Below, piece after piece: positions 5,806 to 61,979 of a DNA stretch of 64,000 bases (positions are counted from its first letter, which is position 1; each line of letters begins with the position of its first letter). The position numbers and the translations under genes are program-made. This DNA comes from Dictyostelium discoideum. Its lineage: Eukaryota. The stretch is from NCBI GenBank assembly GCA_000004695.1, contig CM000152.2, positions 3,584,001 to 3,648,000 on the forward strand, written 5' to 3'. The notes beneath the pieces were generated by a model, which saw only the letters and a program-made list of their open reading frames with translations, made no database searches and was not told where the DNA came from.

Positions 5806-5909
5806 TTTTATTTATTTTTATTTTATTGAATTTGGCTTTAAAAATAATATCGATTTAAAAAAGAGAAATTTTATTATTAATCGAGAAAATAATTTTTAAT
5901 TAAATAATG

Positions 5910-24614: not shown

Positions 24615-26770
24615 ATTTCTGAAATCATTGGTTTTATACGTCAATGTTGTACTTGGTCCCTGGACGAACTCCTGTAGTATTTTTATTATTTGATTTTACA
24701 TTAACTTTGAATTCTTTGTCACTTGTCAATAAATTCTTACCAGAAACTGTGATATGACCTCCACAAGTAAGTGTTTTATTATCTTTATTTGTTATATGAT
24801 AAATGACAGGAGGTAATGTTAAATAAAAGAATGAATCCATATAATTACCATCTACAGTAATATTAATTGGGCCATTTTTATATGAATCCAATATTTTAAT
24901 AGTTAATTGATGATCTTTTAATTCTAGAATTTCTGATGAAATATCACTACCATTTAAATAAACTTTAATTAATGATGTTGAATTACCAAAATTATTACCA
25001 TGTAATTCAATATTAGTTCCATCATCTGAAATTGTACGATTCTCAACTTCAGGTGGTGCATATGAGAATTGATCACTGACTGTCTCTGAGTTTAATTTGA
25101 ATATAAATTGTTTATTAATACCAGTGCCATATGGTGTTGGACATGTTGTTTTATAGTAACTAGAATTTGATGATGGTATTGAACATAGTGAGGCTGATGA
25201 TGAATCACCAACAGTAATACTTGGTGCTGGTGAACTAATTGTACAATCCATATAAAATATTTCAATATTTAATATTCCATTTGATACTGTTGGTCTATTG
25301 GTTACATTTACTGATAATGATGCAGAAATTGAAAGTGTGTTTGCGGTAATATTAGAACGAGTGAAATTACTATTAAATGATCTACATCTTAAATGAGGTA
25401 ATTCAAATGTTAAACTCTTTTCATCAGATGATACATTAAATTTGCTAATGTTTGTATTATTAATTCCATCACCTATAATTGAATGGATGATTCGTTATTT
25501 GTACCAAGATTTGTACCAATTAATGTAACGATACCATTTGAATATGACCCACTTGATAATGTTGGAATATTATATGTAAATAATACACCATTAGGACTTG
25601 TTGAATCACAACCACCGAAATTAACTTTAACCGGTAAGTTTTTACCACCCAGTTCATTTTTTTCTTATTTACATTCCAATTCAGTTGGTGTTGATATAAT
25701 AAATGTACATTGTTTATCACCAATTATAATTGATGGTGTCAAAGATGAATTTAAAGTCGAAGATAGTTTTTCACCTTTAATTGTTACAATACCATCTAAA
25801 CGATTTGATAATGATGATATTGATGTTATAATTGCTGGGAAACAATGATTATAATTCTTTTCAATTGAGACACCATTTACGGTAATACTAACAGACATTG
25901 GGCCAGGCGCAACTCTATTAATGTTACTCACTTGAATTTGTGTATGATTTACTGAAATAATAAAATTTAGTTGAGTAATACCATCAAAATAAACCGTAAC
26001 CAACTTTTTATTTGTAAAGAAGTTATCACCATTAATTGTTATTATTTGTTTCAATGAGTCAAAAACGGTACTTGATATTTTAGGTGATACGTATGAAAAT
26101 GGTACTTTAAATACACCAGTTTCATCATAGTACAACCTAAAAGTTCCAGATCCTGGTGGAAATATTACAGTAATATTATTTAGAGTAGATCCATCAGAGA
26201 AATTACCTTTAACAACCAAAGGTTTAGAAGTATCAATGGAATTTAGAAGGAAATTAGGACCACCAAATAATCTTAAATATGAGCCAGTAATGACCCTATC
26301 TTCACCAGATGTTTTGGTTTTTTACTATATTTCAAATTGGATGCTTTTGGATAATATATTAAAGGCGAAACATCAAATGTACAATCCTCAACAGTATTTG
26401 ATATATCTCTAGCACATATCTTACTGTCTATACTACCCCATAATCTTGAGAATGGTTCATCTTAATGGAATAAACAATGCTCTCTCCATCAACTAGGGTA
26501 CAATTGAAATAATTTGGTGCCATTTCAGTTCTGGGTTCTTTTTCGTTTTTATACAAAATTAAACGGGTAGAATATGGGAGATTACTATTAAAAATAAATG
26601 TAAATGATTTATCATCATATATTACATCTAATAAAAAAAATTAATTACATAAACAAATTATTATAAATAATTAAAAATTTAATGATAATACCTATTGGTG
26701 ATGGACGATACATTGAATATCCTGATTTAAAGAACAAAAATAAAATCAGTAATATTATTTTCTGTTCCAT
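24615..26770 (-). pseudogene. tgrC-like pseudogene: 3' truncated with multiple frameshifts. The exon-1 signal peptide and intron are retained.
   Basis: Fragments 24634..25251 and 25665..26219 align to the intact paralogue 46672..49406. Exon 1 ([27 protein letters not shown] plus gtaagtat) lies at about 26696..26770. Confidence 0.8.
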
Positions 26771-26926
26771 TTTTATCAATAATTTTTTTTATTTTGAACT
26801 TGGCTTTGTCAATAATTTTTATAAAAGAAAATTAAAAAAGAGAAATTTAATTATTTTAGGAAATTTTAATTTTAATTAAATAAATAGATAAAAAAAGATA
26901 AAAAAAAATTAATAAATGTAGAAAAA

Positions 26927-26961
<35 letters not shown>

Positions 26962-27194
26962 ATAAATATATAAATTAAAAAAACAAAATAAAATAAAAAA
27001 ATAAATAATAATAATGAAAAAAAACCATAAAATTCTAAAAAGAGGCTATCTGGTGAATGAGTTTGAGTGTGGTGTTTCATTTATATGAAAAGGGAGTGGT
27101 TTTTTTTGTTGAATGGGGTATTTTTTTTTATGTTAAACCCCTTTTTCTAAAAATAAAAAATGTTTTTTTATGTAAATTTTTTATTAGGAAGTGT

Positions 27195-31901: not shown

Positions 31902-32102
31902 TTATTCATCGTTATGTTGACATGAATTTTGAACATCTTTAATAAGAAGAAATTGTTTTATATAGTCTGACATTAACAAACTAAACGATTCGGTGCATTG
32001 CTTTATTACTTCTGGTGTACTTGAATAATTCGATTTATTACATAGCGATTCCATCATACGAATACATAGAGAGTCTATTTGTTTAATTCCTTCTAAATCC
32101 AT
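31902..32102 (-). CDS. Island ORF, 66 aa, hypothetical
   Basis: ATG ORF in the compositionally atypical island, 37 bp from the next ORF. Confidence 0.3.
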   Translation of the reverse strand: MDLEGIKQIDSLCIRMMESLCNKSNYSSTPEVIKQCTESFSLLMSDYIKQFLLIKDVQNSCQHNDE

Positions 32103-32138
32103 CTTGAATGTTTTGTAATAATGATTGGTTTTTTTATT

Positions 32139-32378
32139 TTATAAATTGTTTGTGATATGTTTATATAACCGGAATAATTCTTTGTCTTCTTCACGAAATA
32201 GTTCTTCGGAATCTTTATAGTGCAGTCTAAAAAAGCCAGTAAATTTACCTGTTTCGTCATCAAGTATTGGTACGTGTTTTATATTCGATTTCAAATATTG
32301 AATTTTTAAAATGAAATTATTTATAGTTGCTACAACTTGTCTATGTGATAAATATATCTCGTCTTCTTCTCCTTGCAT
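32139..32378 (-). CDS. Island ORF, 79 aa, hypothetical. Possibly a HicB-like partner of the adjacent HicA-like ORF, but this is speculative.
   Basis: Divergent from the HicA-like ORF with a 75-bp spacer. The segment HVPILDDETGKFTGFFRLHY weakly resembles the HicB N-terminal beta-strands. Confidence 0.3.
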   Translation of the reverse strand: MQGEEDEIYLSHRQVVATINNFILKIQYLKSNIKHVPILDDETGKFTGFFRLHYKDSEELFREEDKELFRLYKHITNNL

Positions 32379-32453
32379 GTTTTAAAATGATTTATTTGAA
32401 TAATAAAATTGATTTAAAGAAATAAAATATATAGAAATGTATATAAAAAAGAA

Positions 32454-32642
32454 ATGAAATATTCAAGAGTTGAAAAAACCCTCAAAGAAAATGGTTGGGT
32501 AATGGAACGTATGAAAGGGGGTCACGCACAATTTAGGAATGATAGTGGTGGATCGACTACTGTTCCGTATAATGGTAATAAAGATATACCAATTGGTACA
32601 TTAAAAGCCATCGAAAAACAAACTGGTGTGAGTATTATATAG
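32454..32642 (+). CDS. HicA/YcfA-family toxin-domain protein, 62 aa
   Basis: MKYSRVEKTLKENGWVMERMKGGHAQFRNDSGGSTTVPYNGNKDIPIGTLKAIEKQTGV fits the HicA consensus (..L.k.GW..vr.kGSHh.F.h......tvP.H..kdl..GTl.sIlKQaGl) along its whole length. It uses codons rare in the host (ggg, cac, gca, tcg, ccg). Confidence 0.6.
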   Translation: MKYSRVEKTLKENGWVMERMKGGHAQFRNDSGGSTTVPYNGNKDIPIGTLKAIEKQTGVSII

Positions 32643-32659
32643 TTTATTTATTTATTTAT

Positions 32660-32944
32660 TTAAAAACCAATTATTGTGTTGTATACATCACGGATATTAT
32701 GATGTTTATGATTAAAGAACATGGGATTTATGGGACCATGTGAAAATATTTCCTCACGTGTTGGCATTGGTCTCATTTCTGGTTCTGTGATAATGTTGTA
32801 GTATTGTTTGAGAATACTATATTCTTTATATGTTTTTACTTCATTTGTTTTTAACATTTGAGCTAGTATCATTTGTGTTTGGAGCGCAGATTTTATTTGA
32901 TTATGTGTATCCATTTCGTTGTTATATGTGTATGTTAAAAACAA
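32660..32944 (-). CDS. Island ORF, 94 aa, hypothetical
   Basis: ATG ORF 18 bp downstream of the HicA-like ORF, on the opposite strand. Confidence 0.35.
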   Translation of the reverse strand: MFLTYTYNNEMDTHNQIKSALQTQMILAQMLKTNEVKTYKEYSILKQYYNIITEPEMRPMPTREEIFSHGPINPMFFNHKHHNIRDVYNTIIGF

Positions 32945-33046
32945 TAATGATTATGATTTTATATTTTTTTCTTTTTGACTTTTAAACTGTTGTATCAGTG
33001 TAGTATTGTGCTGGTTGAACAGCAACCGTTAATTGTTCTGTTGATG

Positions 33047-33481
33047 TCATACCAGCTGGAGGAAGCGAATATAGACGTAAATTAAGTGGTGTCGCTGAGC
33101 CAAGGGAAAGCACTTTGCAATAGCAGATTTACCGGTAGAGTCAACACAAATGAATGAACAATATGCACTGGTAACCCTGGTTGGAATGGTAGTTGATGTC
33201 CAAGTGAACCCGAGCATCTTATCTGCGTATCCACCGGTGTTTGCTGGTAATGTGAGTGTGGAGAAATATATTGTGACTTGACCTTTCGATCTATTGTACG
33301 CGAAAATGGCACTTAAACCTGGAATTGTTGCGATTGGGGTTGTGTTGTTAATTGATGATATCACATGTACAGTCAAAGATATTTGATGGTATGAGAAGTT
33401 ATCGGAACCAAAAACCTTCCCCGATCGATTTATGATTCTTCCATTGTCTTGTAAAATTAAATCTCCAAATATAGATGTCAT
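33047..33481 (-). CDS. Island paralogue family member P1, 144 aa
   Basis: The N-terminus MTSIFGDLILQDNGRIINRSGK is shared with 34324..34740 and 34907..35353. The protein is beta-rich and has no signal peptide. Confidence 0.5.
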   Translation of the reverse strand: MTSIFGDLILQDNGRIINRSGKVFGSDNFSYHQISLTVHVISSINNTTPIATIPGLSAIFAYNRSKGQVTIYFSTLTLPANTGGYADKMLGFTWTSTTIPTRVTSAYCSFICVDSTGKSAIAKCFPLAQRHHLIYVYIRFLQLV

Positions 33482-33622
33482 TCTTTTGTTGTGGTAATAT
33501 GTTGTGTTGTTTTATGTGTAATACGTTTTTCCATTTTAGATTTATTTATTTGTGATTAGTAACTTTCTTTTTGTGTTGGAAGACGATTTTACCCTCGGCT
33601 ATGTATTTGTGTTTTTCAGCTA

Positions 33623-34225
33623 CTATTTTTGATCTCTGATACATTTATCGGGCATCATTTTCAACCAATCATACCATTCTAAATCAAACATTGGTCTAAT
33701 GTTGTCATTAATCATAGCACGAACCACTAACCAATTCAGTGTTGACGAACTATATCCTGGATGGCCGTAACGGCTGTTCGTTATGTGGTTGAATTGGAAG
33801 TCAGAGTATGTTCTGTTGTATAGAATTCCATACAAGAATTTCAACCCTTTCGAACGCTTCGATGTATAGTGTCTTTTATTTCTGAACTTTCCAGTTTCAA
33901 TAAATTTCCATATATCTGGTTTGGTGAATTTTTCCAAAACAGATTTAATATGGTCGTAATTTGGGTGATTGTATATTAATAGTACCCTTGTCTTTAAAAC
34001 ATGTGGGGGATGTCTTGATGTTTTACTGCATGTTTTTAAATGATTAATTACACCTTTATCATCTGGTGGTGCAAGAAACACTAGAATCACTCGCTTTGTC
34101 ACTACACTCCTCCAAACTTTCCAAAATAATACTTCTGATGGTGATGAGACTGGTTTTTTATTTGATGTAAAAGATTCCTCTATCTCTCTCTTTCTTTTAT
34201 TTGTGTCTTTGATTGGTTCGTTCAT
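33623..34225 (-). CDS. Island ORF, 200 aa, hypothetical basic protein
   Basis: Intact ORF with N-terminal KRKRE. No recognised domain. Confidence 0.4.
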   Translation of the reverse strand: MNEPIKDTNKRKREIEESFTSNKKPVSSPSEVLFWKVWRSVVTKRVILVFLAPPDDKGVINHLKTCSKTSRHPPHVLKTRVLLIYNHPNYDHIKSVLEKFTKPDIWKFIETGKFRNKRHYTSKRSKGLKFLYGILYNRTYSDFQFNHITNSRYGHPGYSSSTLNWLVVRAMINDNIRPMFDLEWYDWLKMMPDKCIRDQK

Positions 34226-34323
34226 TTGGTAATATAATAATAAATGTAAAGAATCGCAATTGTTTGATTAAATAAATCTAAATTTGATATCGAAAACAAA
34301 CAACACATTATCACATTCAAATT

Positions 34324-34740
34324 ATGACATCTATACATTGTAATTTAGTTTTGCAAGACGGTGGTAGGATCATTAGTAAAGACGGCAGTGCGCAAGCACA
34401 GGGGATCGGCAACAGCGAAATCATCCCATTCACAACAGACGCATTCATAACGTCAACTTTTCCTGACAACCCACCAGTTGGAAGTCCAAAGAGAAAGACA
34501 ATTCAGTGTATCGCTTACAAATACAGAAAAGGACCATCGTCATACACTATTAGGGTCTCAATCCCATCTATTTCTTTTCCAATGGGAGACTATGATGGAC
34601 ACTGTTTGGGTTTTATCCAGCCATCGGCATCATTGGGGATCAAAGTGCGTATTACATACTTTGGGTTCTTTCAATTTACAACTGATACTGGCACAGTAAA
34701 AACAACTAAAAACAGTTCAATTATGAACTATGGGGGATGA
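34324..34740 (+). CDS. Island paralogue family member P2, 138 aa
   Basis: Starts MTSIHCNLVLQDGGRIISKDGS. About 42% GC, with runs such as gcgcaagcacaggggatcggcaacagcg. Confidence 0.5.
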   Translation: MTSIHCNLVLQDGGRIISKDGSAQAQGIGNSEIIPFTTDAFITSTFPDNPPVGSPKRKTIQCIAYKYRKGPSSYTIRVSIPSISFPMGDYDGHCLGFIQPSASLGIKVRITYFGFFQFTTDTGTVKTTKNSSIMNYGG

Positions 34741-34906
34741 TAACATTCCGTATTTCCAATCATCTCTACCGATAACATCATCGGTGCCCGTATCATTCGT
34801 GACAAGTAATTCTGATGGTGTTTTTCCATACACTGGAATATAATGGCCCTTTTTCTAAATAAACAAATAAACACTATATTTTATTACCAAGAACCACAAC
34901 AAAAGA

Positions 34907-35353
34907 ATGACATCTATATTTGGAGATTTAATTTTACAAGATGGAGCTAAAATAATTCGTAGGGACGGTTCATCTTTAATTCCATCTAGAACCATCAGAA
35001 ATGCCACCATTAATATTGGAACCATGACCAATACCTCAACACCTGGTAGTTTGATAACTATACAGGCTGAAGCAACATTTATCATAGACGACGATAAGTA
35101 CGTCGAAATGCTCATAGGTATGAAATTTATACCAACTTCAACACACAATGGGAGAGTCATGGTAATCTCTGGCCTTCCATTAGATTTGGTATCAACAAAA
35201 CCACCAAACGGATCATGTATGGTTACAGGTGACGATAACTATGCAATTATTACAATGGCACATTTCGATAGATGGGTAACTGGTGTACCACAAGCACAGT
35301 TAGCATCAACAATTCCATTATCCGGGTTACCTACAACAACCCATCTTCTTTAA
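34907..35353 (+). CDS. Island paralogue family member P3, 148 aa
   Basis: Starts MTSIFGDLILQDGAKIIRRDGS. It shares the internal motif MLIGMKFIPTST with P1 (MLGFTWTSTT). Confidence 0.5.
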   Translation: MTSIFGDLILQDGAKIIRRDGSSLIPSRTIRNATINIGTMTNTSTPGSLITIQAEATFIIDDDKYVEMLIGMKFIPTSTHNGRVMVISGLPLDLVSTKPPNGSCMVTGDDNYAIITMAHFDRWVTGVPQAQLASTIPLSGLPTTTHLL

Positions 35354-35483
35354 TACAAAAACTTCAGGGTCTTTTATAAATTATAAATAAAAACTATAAT
35401 CATTATTTTTTAAAAAAATAAGAACCATTATGTGATAAAGCGTTATTAAATATATGTTATTATTTATTTTTTTTATTGTATTT

Positions 35484-35738
35484 TTATTTTTGAAAGTAAC
35501 CACCACATAATGTAATTTGTGGTGTGATATCTTTTGACGGTGGTGAACCATCTTCTGGCCATATATTTAATATTGATCTGTAAATGGCCGATGTTTGTAG
35601 ATATGATTCTTGCTTTGCGATATAGTATAAATGTTTAATCCTTAAATTATCTTCTTCATCAGAGGCATTGTTTTCAGAAGCGATGCAAATTCTTATTAGT
35701 TGTCTTTCTATTTTTAATTCCATTCTATCTGATAGCAT
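35484..35738 (-). CDS. Island ORF, 84 aa, hypothetical
   Basis: Intact ATG ORF. Confidence 0.3.
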   Translation of the reverse strand: MLSDRMELKIERQLIRICIASENNASDEEDNLRIKHLYYIAKQESYLQTSAIYRSILNIWPEDGSPPSKDITPQITLCGGYFQK

Positions 35739-35875
35739 TCTGTCGCTATCAATAGCCTGTTGATCATTGATTTATTTATATGTATTTGTGTTATTTCATC
35801 TGGTGTGTCTATGTTCATTGTTTGTATTTGTTTGATGTTTTCGATAATAAAAAATTTATTTTATTTATTGGTTTT

Positions 35876-36241
35876 TTATTTTTCGACATTTTCGCAATCA
35901 CTGTCTGAATATTCGTATTCTTCGAACCTTGATTCTTCGCCAATATCAGAATCATCACTATCAGGATCGTAAATATAAGAATGTTCTTCGCAAAGTGGAT
36001 CGTTCTTTTTGTTTGAACACCAATTACCATAAAGATCGGCGATATCCACACCTTTTTTTGATTCTTCTTTGAAACTATCATGTATATACTCCAAACACCC
36101 ACTTACACAACACCTCAAAATGTGGTAGTCACAGTTTGAACATTTGAGTGAATATCTTTCCAACGGATGGTCTGATTGTGTGTGGTGTATAAATATCTGT
36201 TGATTTCTACAGTTTTCGCAATAGGTTTTGAAACAGTGCAT
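35876..36241 (-). CDS. Island ORF, 121 aa, Cys-rich (possible zinc-binding) acidic protein
   Basis: CxxC..CSNC..C..CxxGC..CEEH spacing, plus an acidic D/E/S tail. Confidence 0.4.
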   Translation of the reverse strand: MHCFKTYCENCRNQQIFIHHTQSDHPLERYSLKCSNCDYHILRCCVSGCLEYIHDSFKEESKKGVDIADLYGNWCSNKKNDPLCEEHSYIYDPDSDDSDIGEESRFEEYEYSDSDCENVEK

Positions 36242-36538
36242 TTTGAATAATGAATAAAGAAATTACAAATAATTTAAATAAACAAATAAAGATGCACGTC
36301 GAATGGTTGGGTGAAACAAAGAGTGATGAAATATTCAATAAAAGAATGGAAATTATCGAAAAACTCCAGCAGTTACTTTTAACTCAAATCGAAATTGGTT
36401 TGAATATCTAAGAAAACGTAGACCTGCTTTGACCTGTACCATCACTATACTATCACTATATTCTCACTGTAGCGATACTGATCTAGTACAGTAAAAAAAC
36501 TGTGGTTTTTATTTATCAATTTTATAAAAATAAAAAGT

Positions 36539-36787
36539 TTATTTATTATTTATTTTTGTTTGTTTTTTTGGTTGAATTATTGGTTGTTTCTTACCACTTC
36601 TTTCAAGTTTTAATGGTTGTGTATTATCTTTTTTTGAAACACGCTTTCTTTTAGTGTAAATTGTTGGTGGAACACCCTTTGGTAATGTTACTTCTTTGTT
36701 TTCAACACCTTCTTCTTCAACCTGTTTATTGTTTTCCATTTGTTGTTTTACATATTTAAAAAAAAACAATAATATATATTTAAACAT
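36539..36787 (-). CDS. Island ORF, 82 aa, lysine-rich basic protein
   Basis: High K/R/Q content, which could indicate nucleic-acid binding. Confidence 0.3.
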   Translation of the reverse strand: MFKYILLFFFKYVKQQMENNKQVEEEGVENKEVTLPKGVPPTIYTKRKRVSKKDNTQPLKLERSGKKQPIIQPKKQTKINNK

Positions 36788-36959
36788 TGTGTATAATTCG
36801 ATTATAATAATAACAATTGTTATTAGAAAATTTAAATAATTTAATGATTTTGATTATTTTTTATTTTTATTTTACTAAAAAACATGATCCAAATAACACA
36901 GCGTTTGTACAGTACCAGCAATGTATTAATACAGTGATAGTACAGTGTTTGTATAGTGT

Positions 36960-37457
36960 TTATAAGGTTGACACAACGCTATCTTCTATCACTTCTTTAA
37001 CAACGGATTTCACTGTGGATGGTAATGTAATAACAGCGGATGATGGCCAGTATCTGTAAATTACGTAACCCAATGCTGAAATTGCGAGAATACCACCAAC
37101 GATTTGAAGATCACCACGTTTATAAAATGGTACTTCACTAACTAAATTTGCTAGTGGTTGTGATGGCGCTATTATCTCTTTGTTTTCTATTTCACCACCA
37201 TCGATTATCACAACCACTGGCTCTTGTTTTACTTGTGGAAGAGTGTCAAGGTCTATTAAATCGATTACTTCGCCGTCACCAGAAACACCTAATAAATCGA
37301 ATGTTGGTGATAATGATTCGGGTATCGGAATGTTAATTTGTTTTTTCGAAAGATTGGATTTTTTCTCTTTTTTATTTGTGATTGTCTTTGCTACCTTGAT
37401 TCTTGTCTTTACCTCTTTTACATTTATATTTTCTGGGTTGATAATAAGTTTTGACAT
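36960..37457 (-). CDS. Island ORF, 165 aa, with a predicted single TM helix near the C-terminus
   Basis: The GGILAISALGYVIY hydrophobic segment is preceded by a lysine-rich N-terminus. Confidence 0.35.
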   Translation of the reverse strand: MSKLIINPENINVKEVKTRIKVAKTITNKKEKKSNLSKKQINIPIPESLSPTFDLLGVSGDGEVIDLIDLDTLPQVKQEPVVVIIDGGEIENKEIIAPSQPLANLVSEVPFYKRGDLQIVGGILAISALGYVIYRYWPSSAVITLPSTVKSVVKEVIEDSVVSTL

Positions 37458-37518
37458 TTTTATTTAAATGATTATACTCATTTTATTTATTTGTTTACAA
37501 GTTTGTATTTTGAGATTT

Positions 37519-37755
37519 TTATTTATATTTTTTATCAATAAGTTCTTTGATGGAAAGTGACTCAGAATCATTGATTTCTGGTATTGTGAAATCATAACGA
37601 TTATACTTGAATGCAATGAACTCTTCTTGACTCTTGAATATTACTTTACCACGACTTGCTCTAGAGAATGTTAGATATCTTAACCAACTAACTGGTGCGT
37701 TGTTTTTTGCCAACCAACAATGAAAGTATCGTGTAGATGATAAATAAACCTCCAA
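37519..37755 (-). CDS. Island ORF, 78 aa, hypothetical
   Basis: Intact ATG ORF, 62 bp from its neighbour. Confidence 0.3.
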   Translation of the reverse strand: MEVYLSSTRYFHCWLAKNNAPVSWLRYLTFSRASRGKVIFKSQEEFIAFKYNRYDFTIPEINDSESLSIKELIDKKYK

Positions 37756-37808
37756 AAGAAATGATTCAACACCATCATCGGTACGAGGAAAGAGAACATT
37801 GAACGATC

Positions 37809-38468
37809 TTAAATTAATAGCAGATCGAGTTTATTTGGGTCATGATAAATTGGTTTTGAAAGCGAGAACACTCTAGCATTAATACCACCAAGATTTGTTA
37901 CATTTTCGGCAGAGTTTTTCGAAACACTAGTTGGTAATGGATCAAAAGCATGTTCCCATATTTCTTCTATTTCAGATTCTCCTTCTGGTTCGGAAATTTG
38001 TAGTGTATCGTTATTATGTTGAGAGTTATCGATTTCATCATCTTCCTCATTGGATTTTATAGGTGATTGGATCGTTGCTGCGCTGGTAGATGTGGCTGTA
38101 GTTGTAGTGGTTTTGGTTGGTGACCGGTAATCGTCGTGTTTCTGTTCGTCTTCTTCTTTATCTTTTGATTGTTGTTGTAAGAGTTCTTTTAGCTGTTGTT
38201 GTTTAAGTTGACGTAGTTGGTTTTGTTGATGATAGTGTTGTTCCATTTCAAGTTGTTTTGATATGTGGTGTTGTTGATTTGGTGGTGGTGAAAGGAATGA
38301 AATTGGTGATGAATAATGTTGGTGTGTTGGAGTCATTATCTCCATTGGTTGGTATGATTTATCTCTATTGTCTATTATTTCTTTGTAGATTCTATTTTCA
38401 ATTTTAGCTACATTATACTTTTTCTTTAAAACACATCGTGTTTTATTTTTTTTTTTTTCAAATACCAA
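37809..38468 (-). CDS. Island ORF, 219 aa, Gln-rich then acidic protein
   Basis: Contains HYHQQNQLRQLKQQQLKELLQQQ, a Thr/Ser tract and an acidic tail. It is the last ORF before the AT-rich host flank. Confidence 0.35.
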   Translation of the reverse strand: MVFEKKKNKTRCVLKKKYNVAKIENRIYKEIIDNRDKSYQPMEIMTPTHQHYSSPISFLSPPPNQQHHISKQLEMEQHYHQQNQLRQLKQQQLKELLQQQSKDKEEDEQKHDDYRSPTKTTTTTATSTSAATIQSPIKSNEEDDEIDNSQHNNDTLQISEPEGESEIEEIWEHAFDPLPTSVSKNSAENVTNLGGINARVFSLSKPIYHDPNKLDLLLI

Positions 38469-38538
38469 TTTAATTCTAACTTTAAATATAAAAAAACAAT
38501 GATGTTCCTATATTAAGAAACAATGTTATTTATTATTT

Positions 38539-46671: not shown

Positions 46672-49406
46672 TTAAAATTTTTTACCTATAAATTTTTTCA
46701 CACGAAAAGGTATTTTAAAGTAATAGGCAAGAGCACCGATAGCAAGAGCACCACCAACACTACCAATTGTAGAACCTATTATTAAACCATTTGATGGTTT
46801 GGATGATTTAGTTTCAACATCTCTTTGACTAACGTTTGGTGATGGAGATAATTTAATTTCTTCAATTGTGACATTATATTGAAATGATGTTGAGTTAAAT
46901 AGGAGATATAATACTCCTGATGTATTTTTCACACTTGAACCGGAATGGCATGATAAACAATCAGTATTACTATTTGTAATATTAGTTTCACTTGAATCAC
47001 TATCATCAAGTATTTCATTTGGTGATAAACTACATTCTAAATTACATGAAAGAGGAACAGTTTCTGATGAAACTGTTAAGCTTGCATTGAGAATATCTGT
47101 AAAACTATAACCACGAATTATTGCTAAAATACCTTTTTCAATTTTATTTTCAATGGTTGGAATTTCTGAAATCATTGGTTTTATATAGGTCAATGTTGTA
47201 CTTGGTCCTGAACGAACTCCAATGAATGTTGTAACAAAGAGTGAACTCTCTCTACTTTCATCTCTAACTATTAATATCTTTTCATCTTGAGCAAATACTG
47301 TGGTATTTTTATTATTTGATTTTACATTAACTTTGAATTCTTTGTCACTTGTCAATAAATTCTTACCAGAAACTGTGATAAGACCTCCACAAGCAAGTGT
47401 TTTATTATCTTTATTTGTTATACGATAAATGACAGGAGGTAATGTTAAATAAAATAATGAATCCATATAATTACCATCTACAGTAATATTAATTGGGCCA
47501 TTTTCATATGAATCCAATATTTTAATAGTTAATTGATGATCTTCTAATTCTTGAATTTCTGATGAAATGTCACTACCATTTAAATAAACTTTAATTAATG
47601 ATGTTGAATTACCAAAATTATTACCGTGTAATTCAATATTAGTTCCATCATCAGAAATTGTACGATTCTCAACTTCTGGTGGTGCATATGAGAATTGATC
47701 ACTGACTGTCTCTGAGTTTAATTTGAATATAAATTGTTTATTAATACCAGTACCGTATGGTGTTGGACATGTTGTTTCATAGTAACTAGAATTTGATGAT
47801 GGTATTGAACATGGTGAGGCTGATGATGAATCACCAACAGTAATACTTGGTGCTGATGAACTAATTGTACAATCCATATAATATATTTCAATATTTAATA
47901 TTCCATTTGATACTGTTGGTCTATTAATTACATTTACTGATAATGATGCTGAAATTGAAAGTGTTTTTGCGGTAATACCAGAACGAGTGAAATTAATATT
48001 AAATGATCTACATCTTAAATGAGGTAATTCAAATGTTACACTCTTTTCATCAGATGATGATACATTAAATTGGCTAATGTTTGTATTTTTAATTCCATCA
48101 CCATATAATTGAATGGATGATTCGTTATTTGTACCAAGATTTGTACCAATTAATGTAACGATACCATTAGAATATGATCCACTTGATAATGTCGGAATAT
48201 TATATGTAAATGATACACCATTAGGACTTGTTGAATCACAACCACCGAAATTAACGTTAACTGGTAAGTTTTTACCACCCAATTCATTTGCATCCAATTT
48301 ACATTCCAATTCAGTTGTTGTTGATTTAATAAATTTACATACTTTATCACCAATTGTAATTGATGGTGTCAATGATGAATTTAAAGTTGAAGATAATTTT
48401 TCACCTTTAATTGTAACAATACCATCTAAATGATTTGATACTGATGATATTGATGTTATTATTGCTGGGAAACAATGAATATAATTCTTTTCTATTGAGA
48501 CCTCATCTACGGTAATATTAACAGACATTGGACCGGGATCAACTCTATTATAGTTATTCACTTGAATTTGTTTATGATTTACTGAAATGATAAAATTGGG
48601 TTGGTCAATACCATCAAAAGAAACCTTAACCAAGTCTTTATCTGTAAAGAAGTTATCACCATTAATTGTTATTATTTGTTTTGATGAGTCTGAGACAGAG
48701 CTTGATATTATAGGCGATTCGTATGAAAATGGTACAGGATTATCCCCAGTTTCATCATAGTACAACCTAAATTTTCCGGATCCTGGTGGAAATGTTACAG
48801 TAATATTATTACAGTCAAAAGATGGATCAGAGAAATTACCTTTAACAACAAAAGGTTTATTTACATCAATGGAATTAATAAGGAAATTAGGACCACCAAA
48901 TAATCTTAAATATGAGCCAGTAATGACTATATCTTCACCAGATGTTTTTGGTTTTTTACTATATTTCAAATTGTATACTTTTGGATAATATACTAAACCC
49001 GAAGCATCAAATGTACAATCCTCAACAGTATTTGATTTATCTCTAACACATACCTTACTGTCTATACTACCCCATAATCTTGAGAATGGTTCATCTGAAT
49101 GGAATAAACAATGTCTCTCTCCATCAACTAGAGAACAATTGAAATAATTTGGTGCCATTTCAGTTCTGGGTTCTTTTTCGTTTTTATACAAAATTAAACG
49201 GGTAGAATATGGGAGATTACTATTAAAAATTAATGTAAATGATTTATCATCATATATTGCATCTAATAAAAAAAATTAATTACATAAACAAATTATTATA
49301 AAGAATTAAAAATTTAATGATACTTACCTATTGGTGTTGGAGGATTCATTGAATATCCTGATATAAAGAACAAAAATAAAATCAGTAATATTATTTTCTT
49401 TTCCAT
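46672..49406 (-). CDS. tgrC1: Tgr-family, tgrC-like type I membrane glycoprotein, 889 aa. Structure is join(49328..49406,46672..49262). It is the partner of the divergent tgrB-like gene.
   Basis: Exon 1 encodes [27 protein letters not shown] (GTAAGT donor). Exon 2 is an 839-aa open frame with IPT/TIG-like repeats, the [15 protein letters not shown], and the 14-aa tail [14 protein letters not shown]. The symbol is tentative. It is chosen because this is the only intact divergent B/C pair in the window, and that architecture is known for D. discoideum tgrB1/tgrC1. Confidence 0.75.
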
Positions 49407-49597
49407 TTTTATCAATGATTTTTTTTATTTTGAATTTGGCTTTTTAATAATTTTTATAAAAGAAAATTAAAAAAGAGAAATTTAATTATTTTAGGAAAAT
49501 TTAATTTTTATTAAATAGATAAAAAAAGATTAAAAAAAAAATTAATTTATAATAAATGTAGAAAAAAAAAATAAAAAAATAAAAAAATAAAAAAATA

Positions 49598-49628
<31 letters not shown>

Positions 49629-49929
49629 TAAATAAATATATAAATTAAAAAAACAAAATAAAATAAAAAAATAAATAATAATAATGAAAAAAAACCATAA
49701 AATTCTAAAAATAGAGGCTATCTGGTGAATGAGCTTGAGTGTGGTATTTCATTTATTTGAAAAGGGGTATTTTTTTTTTTGTTAAACCCCTTTTTCTAAA
49801 AATAAAAAAAAAATTTTATTTGGTAGGGGCAAATCATTTTTTTTTTTTATTATTAATAAAAATAAATTTTTTTTTATTTTTTTTATTTTTATTATTGTTT
49901 AAATTTATAATGCTACAAGTTTTACAAAA
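49407..49929. promoter_or_regulatory. Bidirectional intergenic promoter region shared by the divergent tgrC-like and tgrB-like genes. It contains a conserved GC-richer motif at 49688..49800.
   Basis: There are 523 bp between the two start codons. The motif attctaaaaatagaggctatctggtgaatgagcttgagtgtggt..gttaaacccctttttctaaaaata is conserved at 27019..27155 and 56750..56850 upstream of the other tgrB-like copies. Confidence 0.5.
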
Positions 49930-52441
49930 ATGAAAGTAATATATATTTATTTGTTATTATTATTAGTTTGTAAATTTTTATTTGTTAAATCAAGTTGCTC
50001 TTTAAAAGTTGGAAAAATAGAATGTACAAAAGAATTAGAAACGTTTTTATTATATAATGAAACAGTTGTCAATGTAAAAATGGATACAAATGGAGTAAAA
50101 TATTATTTTAATGCACTCGAGTTTCCTTACAAGAATCTGTTATGCGATTTAAATATTGATATTAAATTCACACCAGAAATCCCATCATTCCCAAATATAC
50201 CTACAACAGGTGGAGACTTCGGGTTCACCTTCAACTTTCCTTGCGACTATAGGCGAAGAGTCAAACGAATAGAAATAGAAAGAACTATATTATCTCTCAG
50301 TTTTGATACAAGCAAAAATCAGTTCGTTACTTACTTGAATCCAGGGTGTGGTCCTTTCAATATTAGTAGTAGTGGGATTCAGATTTTGAGTACAACTTAT
50401 GAAACTGGTGCCATACCCAATGTACCAATTCTCGATGATGATAAAGGTATTTTAACTATTCAAGGTAGTAATCTCTACAATACATCAATTAAAATTTATT
50501 CAAATAACATTCTTAAAGACACCAACCCTAGTGGTGCACTAGATGCTTCCCATTCTTCTGTCACATTCTCCGCTGAAGAATTTTTAACCCCAAATAATTG
50601 GACAATTGAAGTCTCAATATGTGGCTCATTTTATAAGAGCTATTCCTTCCCATATTTTCCAAAGCTCGATAAAATGGAGGGGGTACTTAATGATAATGGT
50701 GGTAATATGGTATTTACTGGAAAGCATTTAAGACCAAAACACAATGTTACTGGTACTTTTGGTAATAAAACTATTGAGTGTCTCACATCCAATTCTTCAA
50801 AAAGCATAACATGTACCATTCCAAGTCGTAAAAACTATGGTTTTCTTGGTTATGATATTCCTGTAACAATTACTGTAAGTAGGATACAATATATATATTA
50901 TAAATACATATTGTTATCATATAACATTACTAATTATTTTTTAAATAATATTTTATTAATAGATTGACGGTGAATATAAATCAAATACAATTAAAATATC
51001 TTATGATCTTCCATTGATTCAAAGTGTTTCACAAAGGGGTAATTCACAGATTTTCGATGTGACCGGTGTGTATTTTTCTGGTGTTAAGAATATGACTGTA
51101 ATTACTGGTAAAAACATGAAAACTGATATTATCCAAAAGAAAACTGCAACATTGGAAGAACCTGGATTTTTTATTGAAAGTAATTATACCATTTTTATAT
51201 TCCTACCAAATAATACTCAACCTGGTTTTATGAACCTTGTTGTTGGTGACGGTGGTAGTGAAACATTTACATCTCCAAGATATAATTTCAAGATCACTCC
51301 AACTATTACTGCTGGCCAAACCTTCAACTCAACTACAAGTGGTAATGATTTAGAAATTAAAGGCATCTTTATGAGAACTGTTGATTCTGATGGTAGAGAT
51401 GTTCCACTAACAGTCAATAGTGGGTCTGGTGGTCTTGTTTGCAATCCATTAAAAGATGGTGATGGTTTATTATTCACCTGTGTTCTAGGACCTGGTTTCG
51501 GTTCAAGCCATACAATGAACGTTTACTATAATCTTATACCCATTGGATCATTTACCGTTAGCTACAATCCTCCATACCTTGGCACAAGTGAACAAGAAAA
51601 AGATGGGACCATTAAAATGAATGGTAAGGACTTAGGGGAATCTGTTAAGGATTCAATTATGACCGTTGTTTATTCTGATGGTAATACAGTAAATGGAACC
51701 GTAATTAAAAGTAGTCATACTTCTCTTATATTTAGGTATCCTATAGGCAATAGAAACACTGCAAGCTATATATTCCAACTTGGTGATCAAAAGAGTAATA
51801 AGGCAGGTCCATTCACTTTGAAACCTATTATTGAAAACACTGATCCTGCTGTACCATGTGGCGGTGGAGTGGTTACTATCAATGGTCATTACTTTTTTAA
51901 CTATACCAAAGATACCACAACTATTACCATTGGTAAAGTACCATGTAATATTTCTTCAATTAGTGAAACAACCATTGAATGTGTAATTGTACCAAATCTT
52001 AGATCTCTTTCTCCATACTACACATCTGGCACTAAACCATTAGTAATCAGTAGCTCAAATCCTGGTACTGAAAAGGTCTACCAATTGACACCTGCAGGTC
52101 TAAACTATAAGTTTGCACCACCAACCATTACAAATACATCTGCAATTGATCAAACCGCTTTAATTACTATATATGGTACATCATTTGGTGATGCAAATCT
52201 TGAAATTCTAATCAATGATAAACCATGTACACAACCTGAAATTAACATTCACACCTATTCTAGTTTAACCTGTAATGTAACCAACTATGATGAAATGAAA
52301 ATATATAACTACTCTAATACTAAATTCAATATTAGTATCTCTGTTGATGGTCAGTACTTTATTGCTGATATTTTCCAATTTAAATGTAAGTTACATACAA
52401 TCATATCATTCTCTATCTTATTATTTATTACTATTGCTGTA

Positions 52442-56100: not shown

Positions 56101-56962
56101 TTTTTTTTTTTTTTTTTTCGACAAACGGAGCGCCAAAAATACAAAATGATTTGAAAAATAAAAATGTAATCATTCTAATTATATTTAAAAAAAAAAAAAA
56201 TTGGGTTAAAACAAAGGAACGGAATATATTTCTGATTAATTTTGTTTTAATATTTATAAACTGTTATAAAAAAAAAAATAAAAAAAATAAAAATAAACTT
56301 TTCTTTTTTTTTTCTTGTTATTTTAAAATAAAAGAAATTGCTAGAGTATAAAAATAATAGAAAGGTGTTTTAAATCATTATAAAACAAGAATATATAAAA
56401 ACAAATAAAAATGATAGGACTACAGTCATTCATTAGTTTTATAATTTAATAATAAACAATCATTTATTTATTTGTTTAATAATTTATTTATTTAAATAGT
56501 ACAGCTTATTCACAAATACCCAAACATCGATAATCTTAATCTACAATAATAATTATTAGAATAAAATAATTTAATAAATGATCAAACTGTTAGTCAATTA
56601 CCATCACCACCACCACCACCACCAACTCGTGATTCCAACACTATCTCACCAAACTCAACCATCTATTCTAACTTAACCATAAAACACCAGAAAAAAAAAA
56701 AATTTTAACAAATAAATTGAAAAAAAAAAAAAAAAAAAAATTATAATGAAATTCTAAAAATTGAGGCTATCTGGTGAATTGGCTTGGGTGTGGTGTATAA
56801 TTTATATGAAAGGTGTGTTTTTTTTTGTTGAACCCCTATTTCTAAAATAGAAATGCTTTTTTTTTTGTAAATAATATTTTTTTTTTTTTTTTTTATTTTA
56901 ACCTCAAATTAATTTTTTTTTTTTTATTATCGTTTTTATTTTAATATTATAATTTTAACAAA

Positions 56963-58047
56963 ATGAAAGTTTTATATATTTATATATTGTTATTGGTTTG
57001 TAAATTTTTATTTGTGAAATCAAGTTGCTCTTTAAAATATGAAAAAATAGAATGTACAAATGAATTTGAAACATTTGAATTATATAATGGTACTGTTGTC
57101 AATGTAAAAATGGATACAGTTGGAGGGAGATATTATTTTAATCCACTAAAGTTTCCTTACAAGAATTTGCTATGCGATTTAAATATTTTAATTAAATTCA
57201 CACCAGAAATCCCATCATTCCCAAATATACCCACAACAGGTGGAGAATTCGGGTTCACCTTCAACTTTCCTTGCACCTATAAGCGAACAGTCAAAGAAAT
57301 AGGAACAGAAAGAACTTTATTATCTCTCAGTTTTGATACAAGCAAAAATCAGTTCGTTACTTACTTGGATCCAGGGTGTGGTGCTTTAAATTTGTTTTTT
57401 GAAAATATCCAGATTTTGAATTCAACTTTTGAAACTGGTGCCATACCCAATGTACCAATTCTCGATGATGATAAAGGTATTTTAACTATTCAAGGTCGTA
57501 ATCTCTACAACACTTCAATTAAAATTTATTCAACTAACATTCTGAAAGACACCAACCCTATTGGTGCACTAGATACTTCCCATTCTTCTGTCACATTCTC
57601 CGCTGAAGAATTTTTAACTCCAAATAATTGGACAATTGAAGTCTCAATATGTGGCTCATTTTATAAAAGCTATTCCTACCCATATTTACCGGTGCTCATC
57701 AAAATGGAGGGGGCACTTAATGATAATGGTTGTAATATGGTATTTACTGGAAAGCATTTAAGACCAAAACACAATGTTACTGGTACTTTTGGTAATAAAA
57801 CTATTGAGTGTCTCACAACCAATTCTTCAAAAAGCATAACATGTACCATTCCAAGTCTTAAAAGTTATGGTTCTCTTGGTTATGATATTCCTGTAACAAT
57901 TACTGTAAGTAGGATACAATATATATTATAAATACATATTGTTATCATATAACCAATTACTAATTATTTTTTAAATAATATTTTATTTAGATTGATGGAG
58001 AATACAAATCAAATACAATTAAAATATCATATGATATTCCAAGGTAT
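56963..58047 (+). pseudogene. tgrB-like gene, truncated. Exon 1, intron 1 and the first 19 codons of exon 2 remain, then the match ends in a stop.
   Basis: Exon 1 at 56963..57904 is 314 codons and about 85% identical to 49930..50874. A GTAAGT intron lies at 57905..57990. After ..ISYDIP the alignment ends and a stop follows. Confidence 0.75.
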
Positions 58048-61240: not shown

Positions 61241-61979
61241 TTTTATTAATAATTATTAAAAAAAGAAAATTAAATTAGAGAAATAATAATTAATATTGAG
61301 TAATTAATTAATTTTTTTTTTTTTTAAAAAAATAATAACAGCATGGGTTGGTAAAAAACTGTGTGAGATTAGTTGGCATGTGGAAAAAAAAAATATATAA
61401 TAATAAAACACAAAGAATTTCAAAAAAAAAATAAAAATATATAAAAAATAATAAATGTATGAAATAAAAAAAATGTTTTTTTTTTTTTTTTTTTTTAATG
61501 ATTAATTTTTTATTATTAATTTATTTACCTTATATATTTTATTAGTTATAAATACAAAAAGTATTTTTTAAAAATTATAATAATATTCATTTTAATAATA
61601 ACAATTTTTTTTTTTTTTTTTAATTTATTATTATTGTCATTTTCATTTTCTTTATTTTCATTATTATTATGATTTATTATAATAAATCATAGAAATAATG
61701 TAAATAGAGATATTCAAAATGACAACAATAATAAAAACGTTTTTCACACCAAAAAGAATTAAATTTTTTTTTTTTCTTTTTTTTTTTTTCTTTTTTTTTT
61801 TTTCTTTTTTTTTCAAAAACCTTCAAATTTTTTTTTTTTTTTTCATTTTCCATCATCTTTATAATTAATAATAAATGTAATTTTTCTTTAAAAATAATTC
61901 ATTTTTTATTTTTATTTTTTTTATTTTATTTTTTAAACCGTACATTTTATTAACTGTTATTAATTAATTATAAATTACT

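What the first reader, a model, noticed from the sequence alone, without database searches (positions are those of the whole stretch)
49688..49800. Conserved GC-richer promoter element retained upstream of every tgrB-like copy, including pseudogenes
An element of about 110 bp is conserved at 49688..49800, 27019..27155 and 56750..56850. Its core is attctaaaaa.gaggctatctggtgaat..g.ttg.gtgtggt, followed by gttaaacccctttttctaaaa. It always sits 110-180 bp upstream of the tgrB-like start and is embedded in otherwise unalignable AT-rich spacer. A second conserved block lies next to each tgrC-like exon 1 (gaatttggcttt..aaaaaagagaaatt at 49430..49500, 26795..26880 and 5823..5905). Conservation through pseudogenisation implies purifying selection or recent duplication. 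Together they are candidate cis-elements for the sharply developmentally regulated, coordinately expressed pair.
Basis: seen in the sequence. Interest (0 to 1): 0.5.

Follow-up and report, generated by a model that had tools for sequence, protein, structure and literature searches.

The report
Duplicated tgrB1 proximal promoter block
The 100-bp G+C-richer block is the tgrB-side end of the known shared tgrB1-tgrC1 promoter of Dictyostelium, present three times because the gene unit was recently duplicated; only two short motifs inside it show signs of real long-term conservation.

Summary
A ~100-bp block (49701-49801, 27031-27152, 56750-56847) lies upstream of all three tgrB-like copies, and its 17-mer core occurs 3 times against 0.01 expected. 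The window is the D. discoideum AX4-type tgrBC cluster: A = tgrB1/tgrC1, B = a pseudogene pair, C = tgrB2.

The inference of special conservation does not hold at this depth. Across 11 copies with an exon-1 ORF of at least 150 aa, from three strains and a cryptic species, element divergence (0.097) equals synonymous third-position divergence (0.101). Its G/C columns vary more than its A/T columns. The "island" look comes from slippage-prone A/T tracts around it and from a duplication breakpoint at tgrB2.

The block is still probably functional. It holds 29 of the 62 G/C bases of the 523-bp promoter and always has the same orientation, 101-195 bp before the ATG. Two sub-blocks, TAAAATTCTAAAAATAG (MEF2/MADS-like) and TTTGAAAGGGG, survive at similar spacing (43-56 nt) in a much more diverged paralogue promoter. 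Best reading: a co-duplicated proximal promoter. Transcription-factor assignments are untested.

The parts
49407..49929 (.). tgrB1-tgrC1 divergent intergenic region (523 bp, 11.9% G+C). The tgrC1 ATG is at 49406 on the minus strand and the tgrB1 ATG at 49930 on the plus strand.
   Evidence: Gene identities come and from the tgrB1 primer match.
49701..49801 (+). Copy A of the element: the tgrB1-proximal promoter block, 29/101 G+C.
   Evidence: nhmmer hit; sequence; composition.
49698..49714 (+). Deeply retained left footprint TAAAATTCTAAAAATAG. It contains CTAAAAATAG, which fits the MEF2/MADS-type consensus CTA(A/T)4TAG.
   Evidence: 17/17 identical in the deep paralogue promoters L003 and L012. 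The 14-mer occurs 9 times in 290 kb, always upstream of a tgrB-type gene and in gene orientation.
49714..49746 (+). Conserved among recent copies only.
   Evidence: The centre is only 52-60% identical in the deep paralogue.
49747..49766 (+). TATA-like stretch (TTTCATTTATTTG in A; TATAATTTAT in 9 of 13 copies), followed by the second retained footprint TTTGAAAAGGG.
49770..49801 (+). Oligo(dT) run (9-13 T in the copies that keep it) followed by GTTAAACCCCTTTTTCTAAAA. This is the inferred transcription-initiation region and start of the 5' UTR.
   Evidence: The start site itself is inferred, not shown.
27031..27152 (+). Copy B of the element, in the tgrC/tgrB pseudogene pair. It has a 2-bp deletion inside CTAAAAATAG and a ~23-bp tandem duplication of the GGGGT/T-run/GTTRAA unit.
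56750..56847 (+). Copy C of the element, upstream of tgrB2 (DDB_G0280693, ATG at 56963). The MEF2-like site is changed to CTAAAAATTG, and there are exact G-box heptamers at 56785-56793 and 56812-56818.
56692..56749 (.). Left limit of tgrB1/tgrB2 homology (duplication breakpoint). Further left lies unrelated CCA-repeat-containing sequence next to the neighbouring minus-strand gene.
49432..49500 (-). tgrC1-proximal block (GAATTTGGCTTT ... AAAAAAGAGAAATT), 26-94 bp upstream of the tgrC1 ATG. Other copies are at 26796-26847 and 5828-5870, with a partial one at 61275-61285.
   Evidence: Its identity equals that of the adjacent intron.
24672..27160 (.). Segmental duplicate B of A 47298-49809: tgrC-like pseudogene plus the complete intergenic region, 91% identical. 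The tgrB-like remainder at 27183-28109 lacks the ATG.

Best explanation
The block is the tgrB-proximal end of the bidirectional tgrB1-tgrC1 promoter. It occurs three times in the window because the tgrC/tgrB unit was recently duplicated within the tgrBC cluster. Copy B is a duplicate of the whole head-to-head unit and is now a pseudogene pair. Copy C is tgrB2, a duplicate of the 5' half of tgrB whose left breakpoint falls within about 50 bp of the block. The similarity of the three copies reflects their young age, possibly helped by the interlocus gene conversion reported for this cluster. It does not reflect excess purifying selection. The block stands out only because the surrounding A- and T-tracts mutate fast by slippage and cannot be aligned.

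Functionally (inferred), the block is the proximal promoter module of tgrB-family genes. Read 5' to 3', it has an upstream MEF2/MADS-like site inside TAAAATTCTAAAAATAG, a GATA-type site and GT-rich G-box-like boxes, a TATA-like stretch, TTTGAAAGGGG, an oligo(dT) run, and GTTAAACCCC, where transcription probably starts. Only the first and fifth of these show conservation beyond what copy age explains.
For: Shown:
- Gene identities.
- A vs B is uniformly 90-97% identical across exon, intron, both blocks and the A-rich middle.
- Homology between A and C starts about 40 bp upstream of the block and runs into exon 1.
- There are 13 copies in 3 strains plus a cryptic species, all in gene orientation and 101-195 bp before the ATG, and none elsewhere in 290 kb.
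- Over the 11 copies with an exon-1 ORF of at least 150 aa, mean pairwise divergence is 0.097 for the element, 0.101 for synonymous third positions, 0.130 for 4-fold sites and 0.167 for the CDS.
- G/C columns are more variable than A/T columns, 0.146 against 0.083.
- The block holds 29 of the 62 G/C bases of the intergenic region, and every 6/7 G-box-like site of that region lies at 49736-49828.
- The deep paralogue promoters (L003, L012) keep 17/17 and 9-10/10 bases of the two footprints, 43-55 nt apart against 56 nt in the tgrB1-type copies, while the centre is 52-60% identical with gaps.
- Indels outside the T-run occur only in pseudogene, tgrB2-type and cryptic-species unpaired copies, never in the seven remaining tgrC-paired copies.

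From the literature:
- tgrB1 and tgrC1 share one promoter and peak at about 9 h (10.1101/2025.10.22.684067; PMC12745789).
- lagC/tgrC1 expression depends on GBF, and the GBF site consensus is (T/G)G(T/G)G(T/G)G(T/G) (PMC2257962, citing Iranfar 2006).
- MADS-box motifs become accessible and mef2A/srfA are induced at multicellular stages (PMC8094536).
- tgrB2 is expressed at tgrB1/tgrC1 levels at 9 h in strain QS33.
Against: - No transcription start site, factor-binding or reporter data were available, so the promoter anatomy rests on sequence pattern alone.
- The AX4 tgrB1 copy itself has no exact GBF heptamer (best match 6/7) and has TTTCAT where most copies have TATAAT.
- The GATA-type site is lost in the cryptic-species copies (CCATC).
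- tgrB1 and tgrC1 were not found in the held supplements of the GtaC ChIP-seq paper.
- PMC12745789 states that AX4 tgrB2 has low or no developmental expression. If so, the ~215 bp containing the block would not be sufficient on its own.
- At about 10% silent divergence and 100 sites, the test has little power to exclude moderate constraint on the whole block.
Confidence: 0.72

Rival explanations
1. One reading: the whole ~110-bp element, and the tgrC-side block, are held by purifying selection as shared cis-elements, even next to pseudogenes.
For: The element is retained in all 13 copies, including pseudogene copies. In orthologous tgrB1 alleles it is slightly more similar than silent sites: A vs L005 3/101 against 0.090, Fisher p = 0.07. 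The flanking A-rich DNA cannot be aligned between strains.
Against: Over 55 pairs the element diverges like synonymous sites (0.097 against 0.101), and in 24 of the 55 it diverges as much or more. For A vs C it diverges significantly more (0.143 against 0.055, p = 0.008). G/C columns are the more variable ones. A vs B is equally conserved everywhere, including the intron. The tgrC-side block equals intron identity in A vs D and is largely absent from the intact tgrC1 promoter of another strain, L006. The named core is not kept in the deep paralogue.
Confidence: 0.12
2. The block is a neutral relic with no function: ordinary-complexity DNA that remains alignable in young duplicates while the low-complexity flanks scramble.
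For: It diverges at the silent-site rate and its G/C positions decay faster. Where there is no tgrB gene (copy D), only a decayed trace remains, with GTTAAACCCC changed to GTTAAATCTT.
Against: Two footprints are exactly retained in a paralogue whose promoter is otherwise at random-level identity. The chance expectation for the 14-mer in two 500-bp promoters is about 1e-4 (own calculation from base composition). The block is the only G/C-bearing part of a promoter known to be GBF-dependent and sharply regulated (PMC2257962). Lesions are confined to non-functional or unpaired copies.
Confidence: 0.12
3. The block encodes or forms a structured RNA: a small RNA gene, or a hairpin in the tgrB 5' UTR built from the GAAAAGGGG / CCCCTTTTC inverted repeat.
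For: An inverted repeat brackets the T-run. One predicted pair shows A-U to U-A changes in 3 copies.
Against: The only Rfam match at E<=1 is a chance-level one (E 0.18, 15.8 bits against a gathering score of 87). No tRNA was found. The minimum free energy is -19 kcal/mol against a shuffle mean of -17.0, z = -0.66. The consensus structure energy is -3.0 kcal/mol, and the same pair is broken in 3 other copies. One copy (L002b) has lost the left arm and the T-run entirely.
Confidence: 0.03
4. Similarity among copies is maintained mainly by ongoing interlocus gene conversion, not by duplication age.
For: [quoted passage not shown] The element haplotypes GTATAAT and GTTTCAT are shared across non-orthologous copies.
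Against: This cannot be separated from young age with these data. Conversion does not explain two short exact footprints flanking a scrambled centre in the deep paralogue. It modifies the best explanation; it does not replace it.
Confidence: 0.3

Closest known systems
The shared (bidirectional) tgrB1-tgrC1 promoter of D. discoideum
   Same: Same locus. The genes lie head to head with about 0.5 kb between them and are jointly expressed at about 9 h (10.1101/2025.10.22.684067; PMC12745789). 'Native promoter' constructs are in use (PMC5052037).
   Different: None of the 34 full-text hits for tgrB1, tgrC1 and promoter, nor the papers opened, dissects the promoter or names a motif. The sub-structure described here is new detail on a known promoter.
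sigN group-2 gene family promoters with paired GBF sites (PMC2257962)
   Same: A duplicated Dictyostelium gene family with divergent gene pairs. G-rich boxes conserved among the duplicated promoters were proposed to serve both flanking genes, and expression is GBF-dependent and post-aggregative.
   Different: The sigN boxes match the GBF consensus. In AX4 tgrB1 the best boxes match only 6 of 7 positions. No reporter test exists for the tgr block.
GBF G-box / CA-rich elements of post-aggregative genes
   Same: GT-rich boxes (GTGTGGTG, GGGGTGT in many copies) lie about 25 bp apart upstream of a GBF-dependent gene.
   Different: The strict heptamer is absent from the AX4 tgrB1 copy, the A/G position is polymorphic, and binding is untested.
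MEF2/MADS-box site YTA(A/T)4TAR, and the MADS motif enriched in multicellular-stage open chromatin (PMC8094536)
   Same: CTAAAAATAG fits the MEF2 consensus exactly (consensus from own knowledge). It is intact in 6 of the 8 tgrC-paired tgrB1-type copies and in the deep paralogue.
   Different: The motif reported in Dictyostelium ATAC data is the CArG-like CCATATATGG, not a MEF2-type site. CTAWWWWTAG is not rare in this A/T-rich DNA: 5 in the window against 2.4 expected.
Classical Dictyostelium core promoter: TATA box, oligo(dT) stretch, cap site (Kimmel & Firtel 1983; own knowledge)
   Same: The order TATAAT(TTAT), about 25 bp, T(9-13), then GTTAAACCCC is found in most copies.
   Different: The AX4 tgrB1 copy has TTTCAT instead of TATAAT, and the cap site has not been mapped.

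Membership tests
Segmental duplicate (co-duplicated promoter) | Homology runs continuously from coding sequence through the intergenic DNA at a uniform identity. | tested here: met
   A vs B: exon 90%, intron 97%, tgrC-side block 96%, A-rich middle 91%, element 96%. A vs C is continuous from 49647 to 51013.
Non-coding element under purifying selection | Divergence is clearly lower than at neighbouring neutral sites (synonymous sites or introns). | tested here: not met
   For the whole block: 0.097 against 0.101 (synonymous) and 0.130 (4-fold) over 55 pairs. Block 2 is 77% against intron 76%. The criterion is met only for the two footprints in the deep paralogue comparison.
Bidirectional promoter | Two divergently oriented genes separated by a short intergenic region and co-expressed. 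| tested here: met
   The ATGs are at 49406 (minus) and 49930 (plus), 523 bp apart. Co-expression is from the literature.
GBF-responsive G-box element | Two closely spaced half-sites matching (T/G)G(T/G)G(T/G)G(T/G). | tested here: inconclusive
   There is no exact heptamer in the tgrB1 copy, only 6/7 matches at 49736, 49738, 49764 and 49822 (plus strand) and 49784 (minus strand). Exact heptamers occur in the tgrB2 copy at 56785, 56787 and 56812.
GBF-responsive G-box element | GBF binds the site, and expression is lost in gbfA-null cells. | not testable with these tools
   Literature only: lagC/tgrC1 expression is GBF-dependent (PMC2257962, citing Iranfar 2006). No binding data are available for this site.
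MEF2/MADS-box site | Sequence YTA(A/T)4TAR. | tested here: met
   CTAAAAATAG at 49705-49714. It is intact in A, L005, L006a, L009a, L010, L011, L002a, L003 and L012, and disrupted in B, C, L004, L006b, L009b and L002b.
MEF2/MADS-box site | Bound by a MADS-box factor (Mef2A or SrfA). | not testable with these tools
   No binding data. The background frequency of the pattern is not negligible.
Dictyostelium TATA / oligo(dT) core promoter | A TATA box about 30 bp upstream of an oligo(dT) run that ends at the cap site. | tested here: inconclusive
   An oligo(dT) run of 9-13 is present in 12 of 13 copies. TATAAT is present in 9 of 13 but not in AX4 tgrB1. The cap site is unknown.
Known RNA family or structured RNA | A covariance-model match, or thermodynamic and covariation support for a fold. 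| tested here: not met

The most novel reading that the evidence does not exclude
The two footprints TAAAATTCTAAAAATAG and TTTGAAAGGGG are binding sites of a dedicated regulator pair, for example a MADS-box factor such as Mef2A or SrfA plus a G-box-type factor. This pair would time expression of the allorecognition genes across the tgrB/E/J-type families. The MADS-like site is intact in nearly all tgrC-paired copies and carries different lesions in the tgrB2 orthologues, so it may be what couples the two genes of a pair.
Probability: 0.25. Interest if true: 0.45.

Novelty: new member of a known kind. Interest (0 to 1): 0.3.

Why it matters
tgrB1 and tgrC1 are the matching receptor-ligand pair of Dictyostelium kin recognition, and they must be expressed together and on time. 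How their shared promoter achieves this has not been dissected in any paper I could find. This analysis narrows the 523-bp promoter to one ~100-bp G/C-bearing module, and within it to two short footprints, which gives reporter and binding experiments concrete targets. It also gives a caution for scans of this kind. In a genome with about 10% G+C intergenic DNA and active segmental duplication, an 'island of conservation' between paralogues is the default expectation, not evidence of selection.

Tried and rejected
- Rfam scan of 49300-50000 at E<=1 gave only a chance-level hit (rli117, E 0.18, 15.8 bits against a gathering score of 87).
- ARAGORN found no tRNA in the whole window.
- The RNA fold of the element has z = -0.66, and the consensus fold of 12 copies is -3.0 kcal/mol. 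The RNA reading was rejected.
- The upstream ORF starting at the ATG in GAATGAGC is absent from tgrB2 (ATTGGC). The mini-ORF ATG-T(n)-GTAA after the element changes frame with T-run length and is missing in tgrB1. Both were rejected by inspection.
- For GtaC (GATA factor) targeting, none of DDB_G0280689, DDB_G0280531, DDB_G0280693, tgrB1 or tgrC1 was found in the four held supplements of PMC4506546.
- The metagenome scan with TTCTAAAAATAGN{30,60}TTGAAARGGG gave 41 loci. All are unrelated (mostly one sequence that recurs across low-G+C contigs, apparently bacterial) and none gave an nhmmer hit.
- Two protein searches returned only D. discoideum and 'cf. discoideum' assemblies, so no more distant species could be examined.
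- The AX4-type copy of the deep paralogue (L007) has a rearranged, 240-bp intergenic region without the footprints and is uninformative.
- L008 (P0003) has lost its 5' region and is uninformative.
- A first run of the divergence script timed out and was redone.
- The supplements of PMC12745789 are not held, so the AX4 tgrB2 expression claim could not be checked.

Full report
WHAT THE WINDOW IS

The window has 23% G+C. It contains TIG/Ig_TgrO1-domain genes. The ORF at 56963-57931 is 314/315 identical to D. discoideum AX4 DDB_G0280693, which the literature names tgrB2. DDB_G0280689 is tgrB1 and DDB_G0280531 is tgrC1. A public chromosome-scale contig shows the same layout: a tgrC of 889 aa on the minus strand, a tgrB of 902 aa on the plus strand 523 bp away, and the 339-aa tgrB2 7 kb further on. 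A published tgrB1 primer matches 50077-50094 (compared).

- Copy A is tgrC1 (ATG at 49406, minus strand) and tgrB1 (ATG at 49930, plus strand).
- Copy C is tgrB2.
- Copy B (24672-28109) is a pseudogene pair. Its tgrC part is frame-shifted and its tgrB part has lost its start.
- tblastn finds exactly three tgrB-like and four tgrC-like copies in the window.

CHECK OF THE OBSERVATION

The block is at the stated places. GAGGCTATCTGGTGAAT occurs exactly three times against 0.01 expected. GTTAAACCCCTTTTTCTAAAA occurs three times (up to 2 mismatches) against 0.04 expected. The block is G+C-richer than its surroundings: 29/101 against 33/422 for the rest of the intergenic region.

Two statements are wrong or overstated.

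First, the block is not embedded in unalignable DNA in the A/B comparison. BLAST aligns 24672-27160 with 47298-49809 in a single 2.5-kb piece at 91%. Segment by segment, identity is 90% in tgrC exon 2, 97% in the intron, 96% in the tgrC-side block, 91% in the A-rich middle (with indels), and 96% in the element. For A/B that condition is met.

Second, copy B has no tgrB start. About 200 bp (A 49835-50040) is deleted.

For A/C, homology begins about 40 bp upstream of the block. Further left lies unrelated sequence beside another gene, so this is a duplication breakpoint. Homology then runs into exon 1. The block is 76-88% identical, the T-rich spacer 50-64% with indels, the last 50 bp before the ATG about 80%, and exon 1 84-100%.

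IS IT CONSERVED BEYOND ITS AGE?

I fetched tgrB-type loci from two further D. discoideum strains and two 'cf. discoideum' (cryptic species) assemblies.

A profile of the block finds 13 distinct copies. All are in gene orientation. The block's end lies 101-195 bp before the ATGAAAGT start in the 12 copies that keep one, and there are no hits anywhere else in 290 kb.

Between strains, the A-rich DNA to the left cannot be aligned (pi 0.35, at the level expected for random A-rich sequence), while the sub-blocks of the element have pi 0.08-0.13. The island appearance is therefore real.

The island evolves at the silent rate, however. Over 55 pairs among the 11 copies with an exon-1 ORF of at least 150 aa, mean divergence is 0.097 for the element, 0.101 for third positions of identical codons, 0.130 for 4-fold sites and 0.167 for the whole exon. 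The element is the less diverged of the two in only 31 of 55 comparisons with synonymous sites. Columns whose consensus is G or C are more variable (0.146) than A/T columns (0.083), as expected for unconstrained DNA under A/T-biased mutation.

The tgrC-side block behaves the same way. A vs D gives 77% against 76% for the intron. It is largely missing from the promoter of an intact tgrC1 in strain L006.

The contrast between block and flanks therefore comes from hypermutable homopolymer tracts and from breakpoints, not from extra constraint on the block. Power is limited, with about 100 sites at about 10% divergence.

EVIDENCE THAT PART OF IT IS NEVERTHELESS FUNCTIONAL

(a) A more distant tgrB-like paralogue has the signal peptide MKIKYI... 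and is 52-61% identical in protein. Only part of its exon 1 aligns to tgrB1 at the nucleotide level (76.6% over about 350 bp for L003). It was recovered from both cryptic-species assemblies (L003, L012). Its promoter shares two things with the tgrB1 block: TAAAATTCTAAAAATAG (17/17 identical) and TTTGAAAGGGG (9-10/10 identical). They lie in the same order and orientation. The offset is 55 nt in L003 and 43 nt in L012, against 56 nt in the tgrB1-type copies. The sequence between them is 52-60% identical with many gaps, and the downstream region about 55%. Even between the two orthologues L003 and L012 the centre is only 57% identical, while both footprints are perfect. The 14-mer AATTCTAAAAATAG occurs nine times in 290 kb, each time at this position.

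(b) The block contains every near-match to the GBF consensus in the intergenic region and nearly half of its G/C bases. lagC/tgrC1 is reported to be GBF-dependent (PMC2257962).

(c) Indels outside the T-run are found only in the pseudogene copy B (a 2-bp deletion in CTAAAAATAG and a 23-bp tandem duplication), in tgrB2 orthologues, and in the unpaired cryptic-species copies. They are not found in the seven remaining tgrC-paired copies.

(d) The MEF2-type site CTAAAAATAG is intact in six of the eight tgrC-paired copies and in the deep paralogue. It carries different lesions in the three tgrB2 orthologues. The numbers are small and the copies are not independent, so this is a lead only.

HOW IT MOST LIKELY WORKS

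This section is inference. Reading 5' to 3', the block contains:
- a MADS/MEF2-like site;
- a GATA-type site on the minus strand (CTATCT);
- GT-rich boxes (TGGTG, GTGTGGTG);
- a TATA-like stretch (TATAATTTAT in 9 of 13 copies, TTTCATTTAT in AX4 tgrB1);
- TTTGAAAGGGG;
- a run of 9-13 T;
- GTTAAACCCC.

The last three follow the classical Dictyostelium arrangement of TATA box, oligo(dT) and cap site (own knowledge: Kimmel & Firtel 1983). On that basis I place the tgrB start site at or just after the T-run, which gives a 5' UTR of about 100-200 nt.

The tgrC-side block would be the corresponding proximal region and 5' UTR of tgrC1, and the poly(dA) tracts the spacer between the two.

None of the factor assignments is tested. 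The strict GBF heptamer is absent from AX4 tgrB1. The GATA site is lost in the cryptic species. The held GtaC ChIP supplements do not list these genes.

tgrB2 shares only about 215 bp of upstream sequence with tgrB1, starting at the block. In strain QS33, where tgrB2 is translocated and sits next to a tgrC pseudogene, it is expressed at tgrB1/tgrC1 levels at 9 h. Another paper states that AX4 tgrB2 is weakly expressed or silent. Whether the block is sufficient therefore remains open.

RIVALS

- Whole-block purifying selection is not supported.
- A purely neutral relic is hard to reconcile with the deep-paralogue footprints.
- A structured RNA is rejected.
- Gene conversion, which the preprint infers for this cluster from paralogues that intermingle within clades, probably contributes to the similarity of recent copies. 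It cannot be separated from young age here.

COMPARISON WITH WHAT IS KNOWN, AND VERDICT

The shared tgrB1-tgrC1 promoter is known. I found no dissection of it in the papers I could search and open. The nearest analogue is the sigN family, where GBF-type boxes conserved among duplicated divergent promoters were proposed and tested with reporters (PMC2257962).

The finding is a correct observation of a co-duplicated proximal promoter. The claim of selection is not supported for the block as a whole. A smaller and different pair of motifs does look constrained. Novelty is modest: new detail on a known kind of element. Interest is 0.3.

Noticed in passing
window 361-373 (minus strand): TTGAGTGTGGTAT, an exact 13-mer of the tgrB1 element (49735-49747), lies in another intergenic stretch with no other similarity around it. 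From base composition a chance match in the window is about 4e-4 (own calculation). The gene it precedes lies off the start of the window.
   Followed up: partly
window 5990-6380: The tgrC-like copy D has no tgrB partner but keeps a decayed trace of the tgrB-side promoter. The trace includes ttccaaaaatagatattgattggtatcatttcata and GTTAAATCTT in place of GTTAAACCCC. The local alignment score is 93, against a shuffle mean of 60, sd 8 and maximum 92.
   Followed up: partly
window 27040-27131: The pseudogene copy B of the element has a 2-bp deletion inside CTAAAAATAG and a ~23-bp tandem duplication of the GGGGT / T-run / GTTRAA unit.
   Followed up: yes
window 49759-49795 and the homologous positions in 12 copies: The inverted repeat GAAA(A/T)GGGG ... 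CCCCT(T/A)TTTC brackets the T-run. An A>T change on the left coincides with T>A on the right in 3 copies, but 3 other copies break the pair. This could be a palindromic protein site rather than an RNA stem.
   Followed up: partly
window 11385-12077 and 20056-20451: Two ORFs with GATA zinc-finger domains (E 2.8e-10 and 1.8e-07) lie in the same cluster region. No link to the element is known.
   Followed up: no
window 17664-18190/22696-23227, 21433-22221/30007-30793, 22260-22835/41699-42275, 24202-24617/42409-42848, 13029-13359/28418-28766: There are further recent duplications, 84-98% identical and some inverted, between the tgr copies. This fits the reported high rate of rearrangement at this locus.
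   Followed up: no
window 32000-38500: A stretch of 28-36% G+C carries many 120-220-aa ORFs on both strands. The seven tested have no Pfam match, and its nature was not determined.
   Followed up: partly
L003 9650-9950 and L012 9680-9870: The deep-paralogue promoters contain repeated CACTCTTT(T)AGAAAATTT units and other G/C-bearing blocks that are conserved between the two cryptic-species assemblies. L003 also has a (T8-9 CTC)n microsatellite.
   Followed up: no
protein searches: The full-length tgrB1 proteins that are annotated in the fetched loci (902-907 aa in L001, L006 and L009) did not appear among the hits of either protein search, although shorter paralogues did.
   Followed up: no
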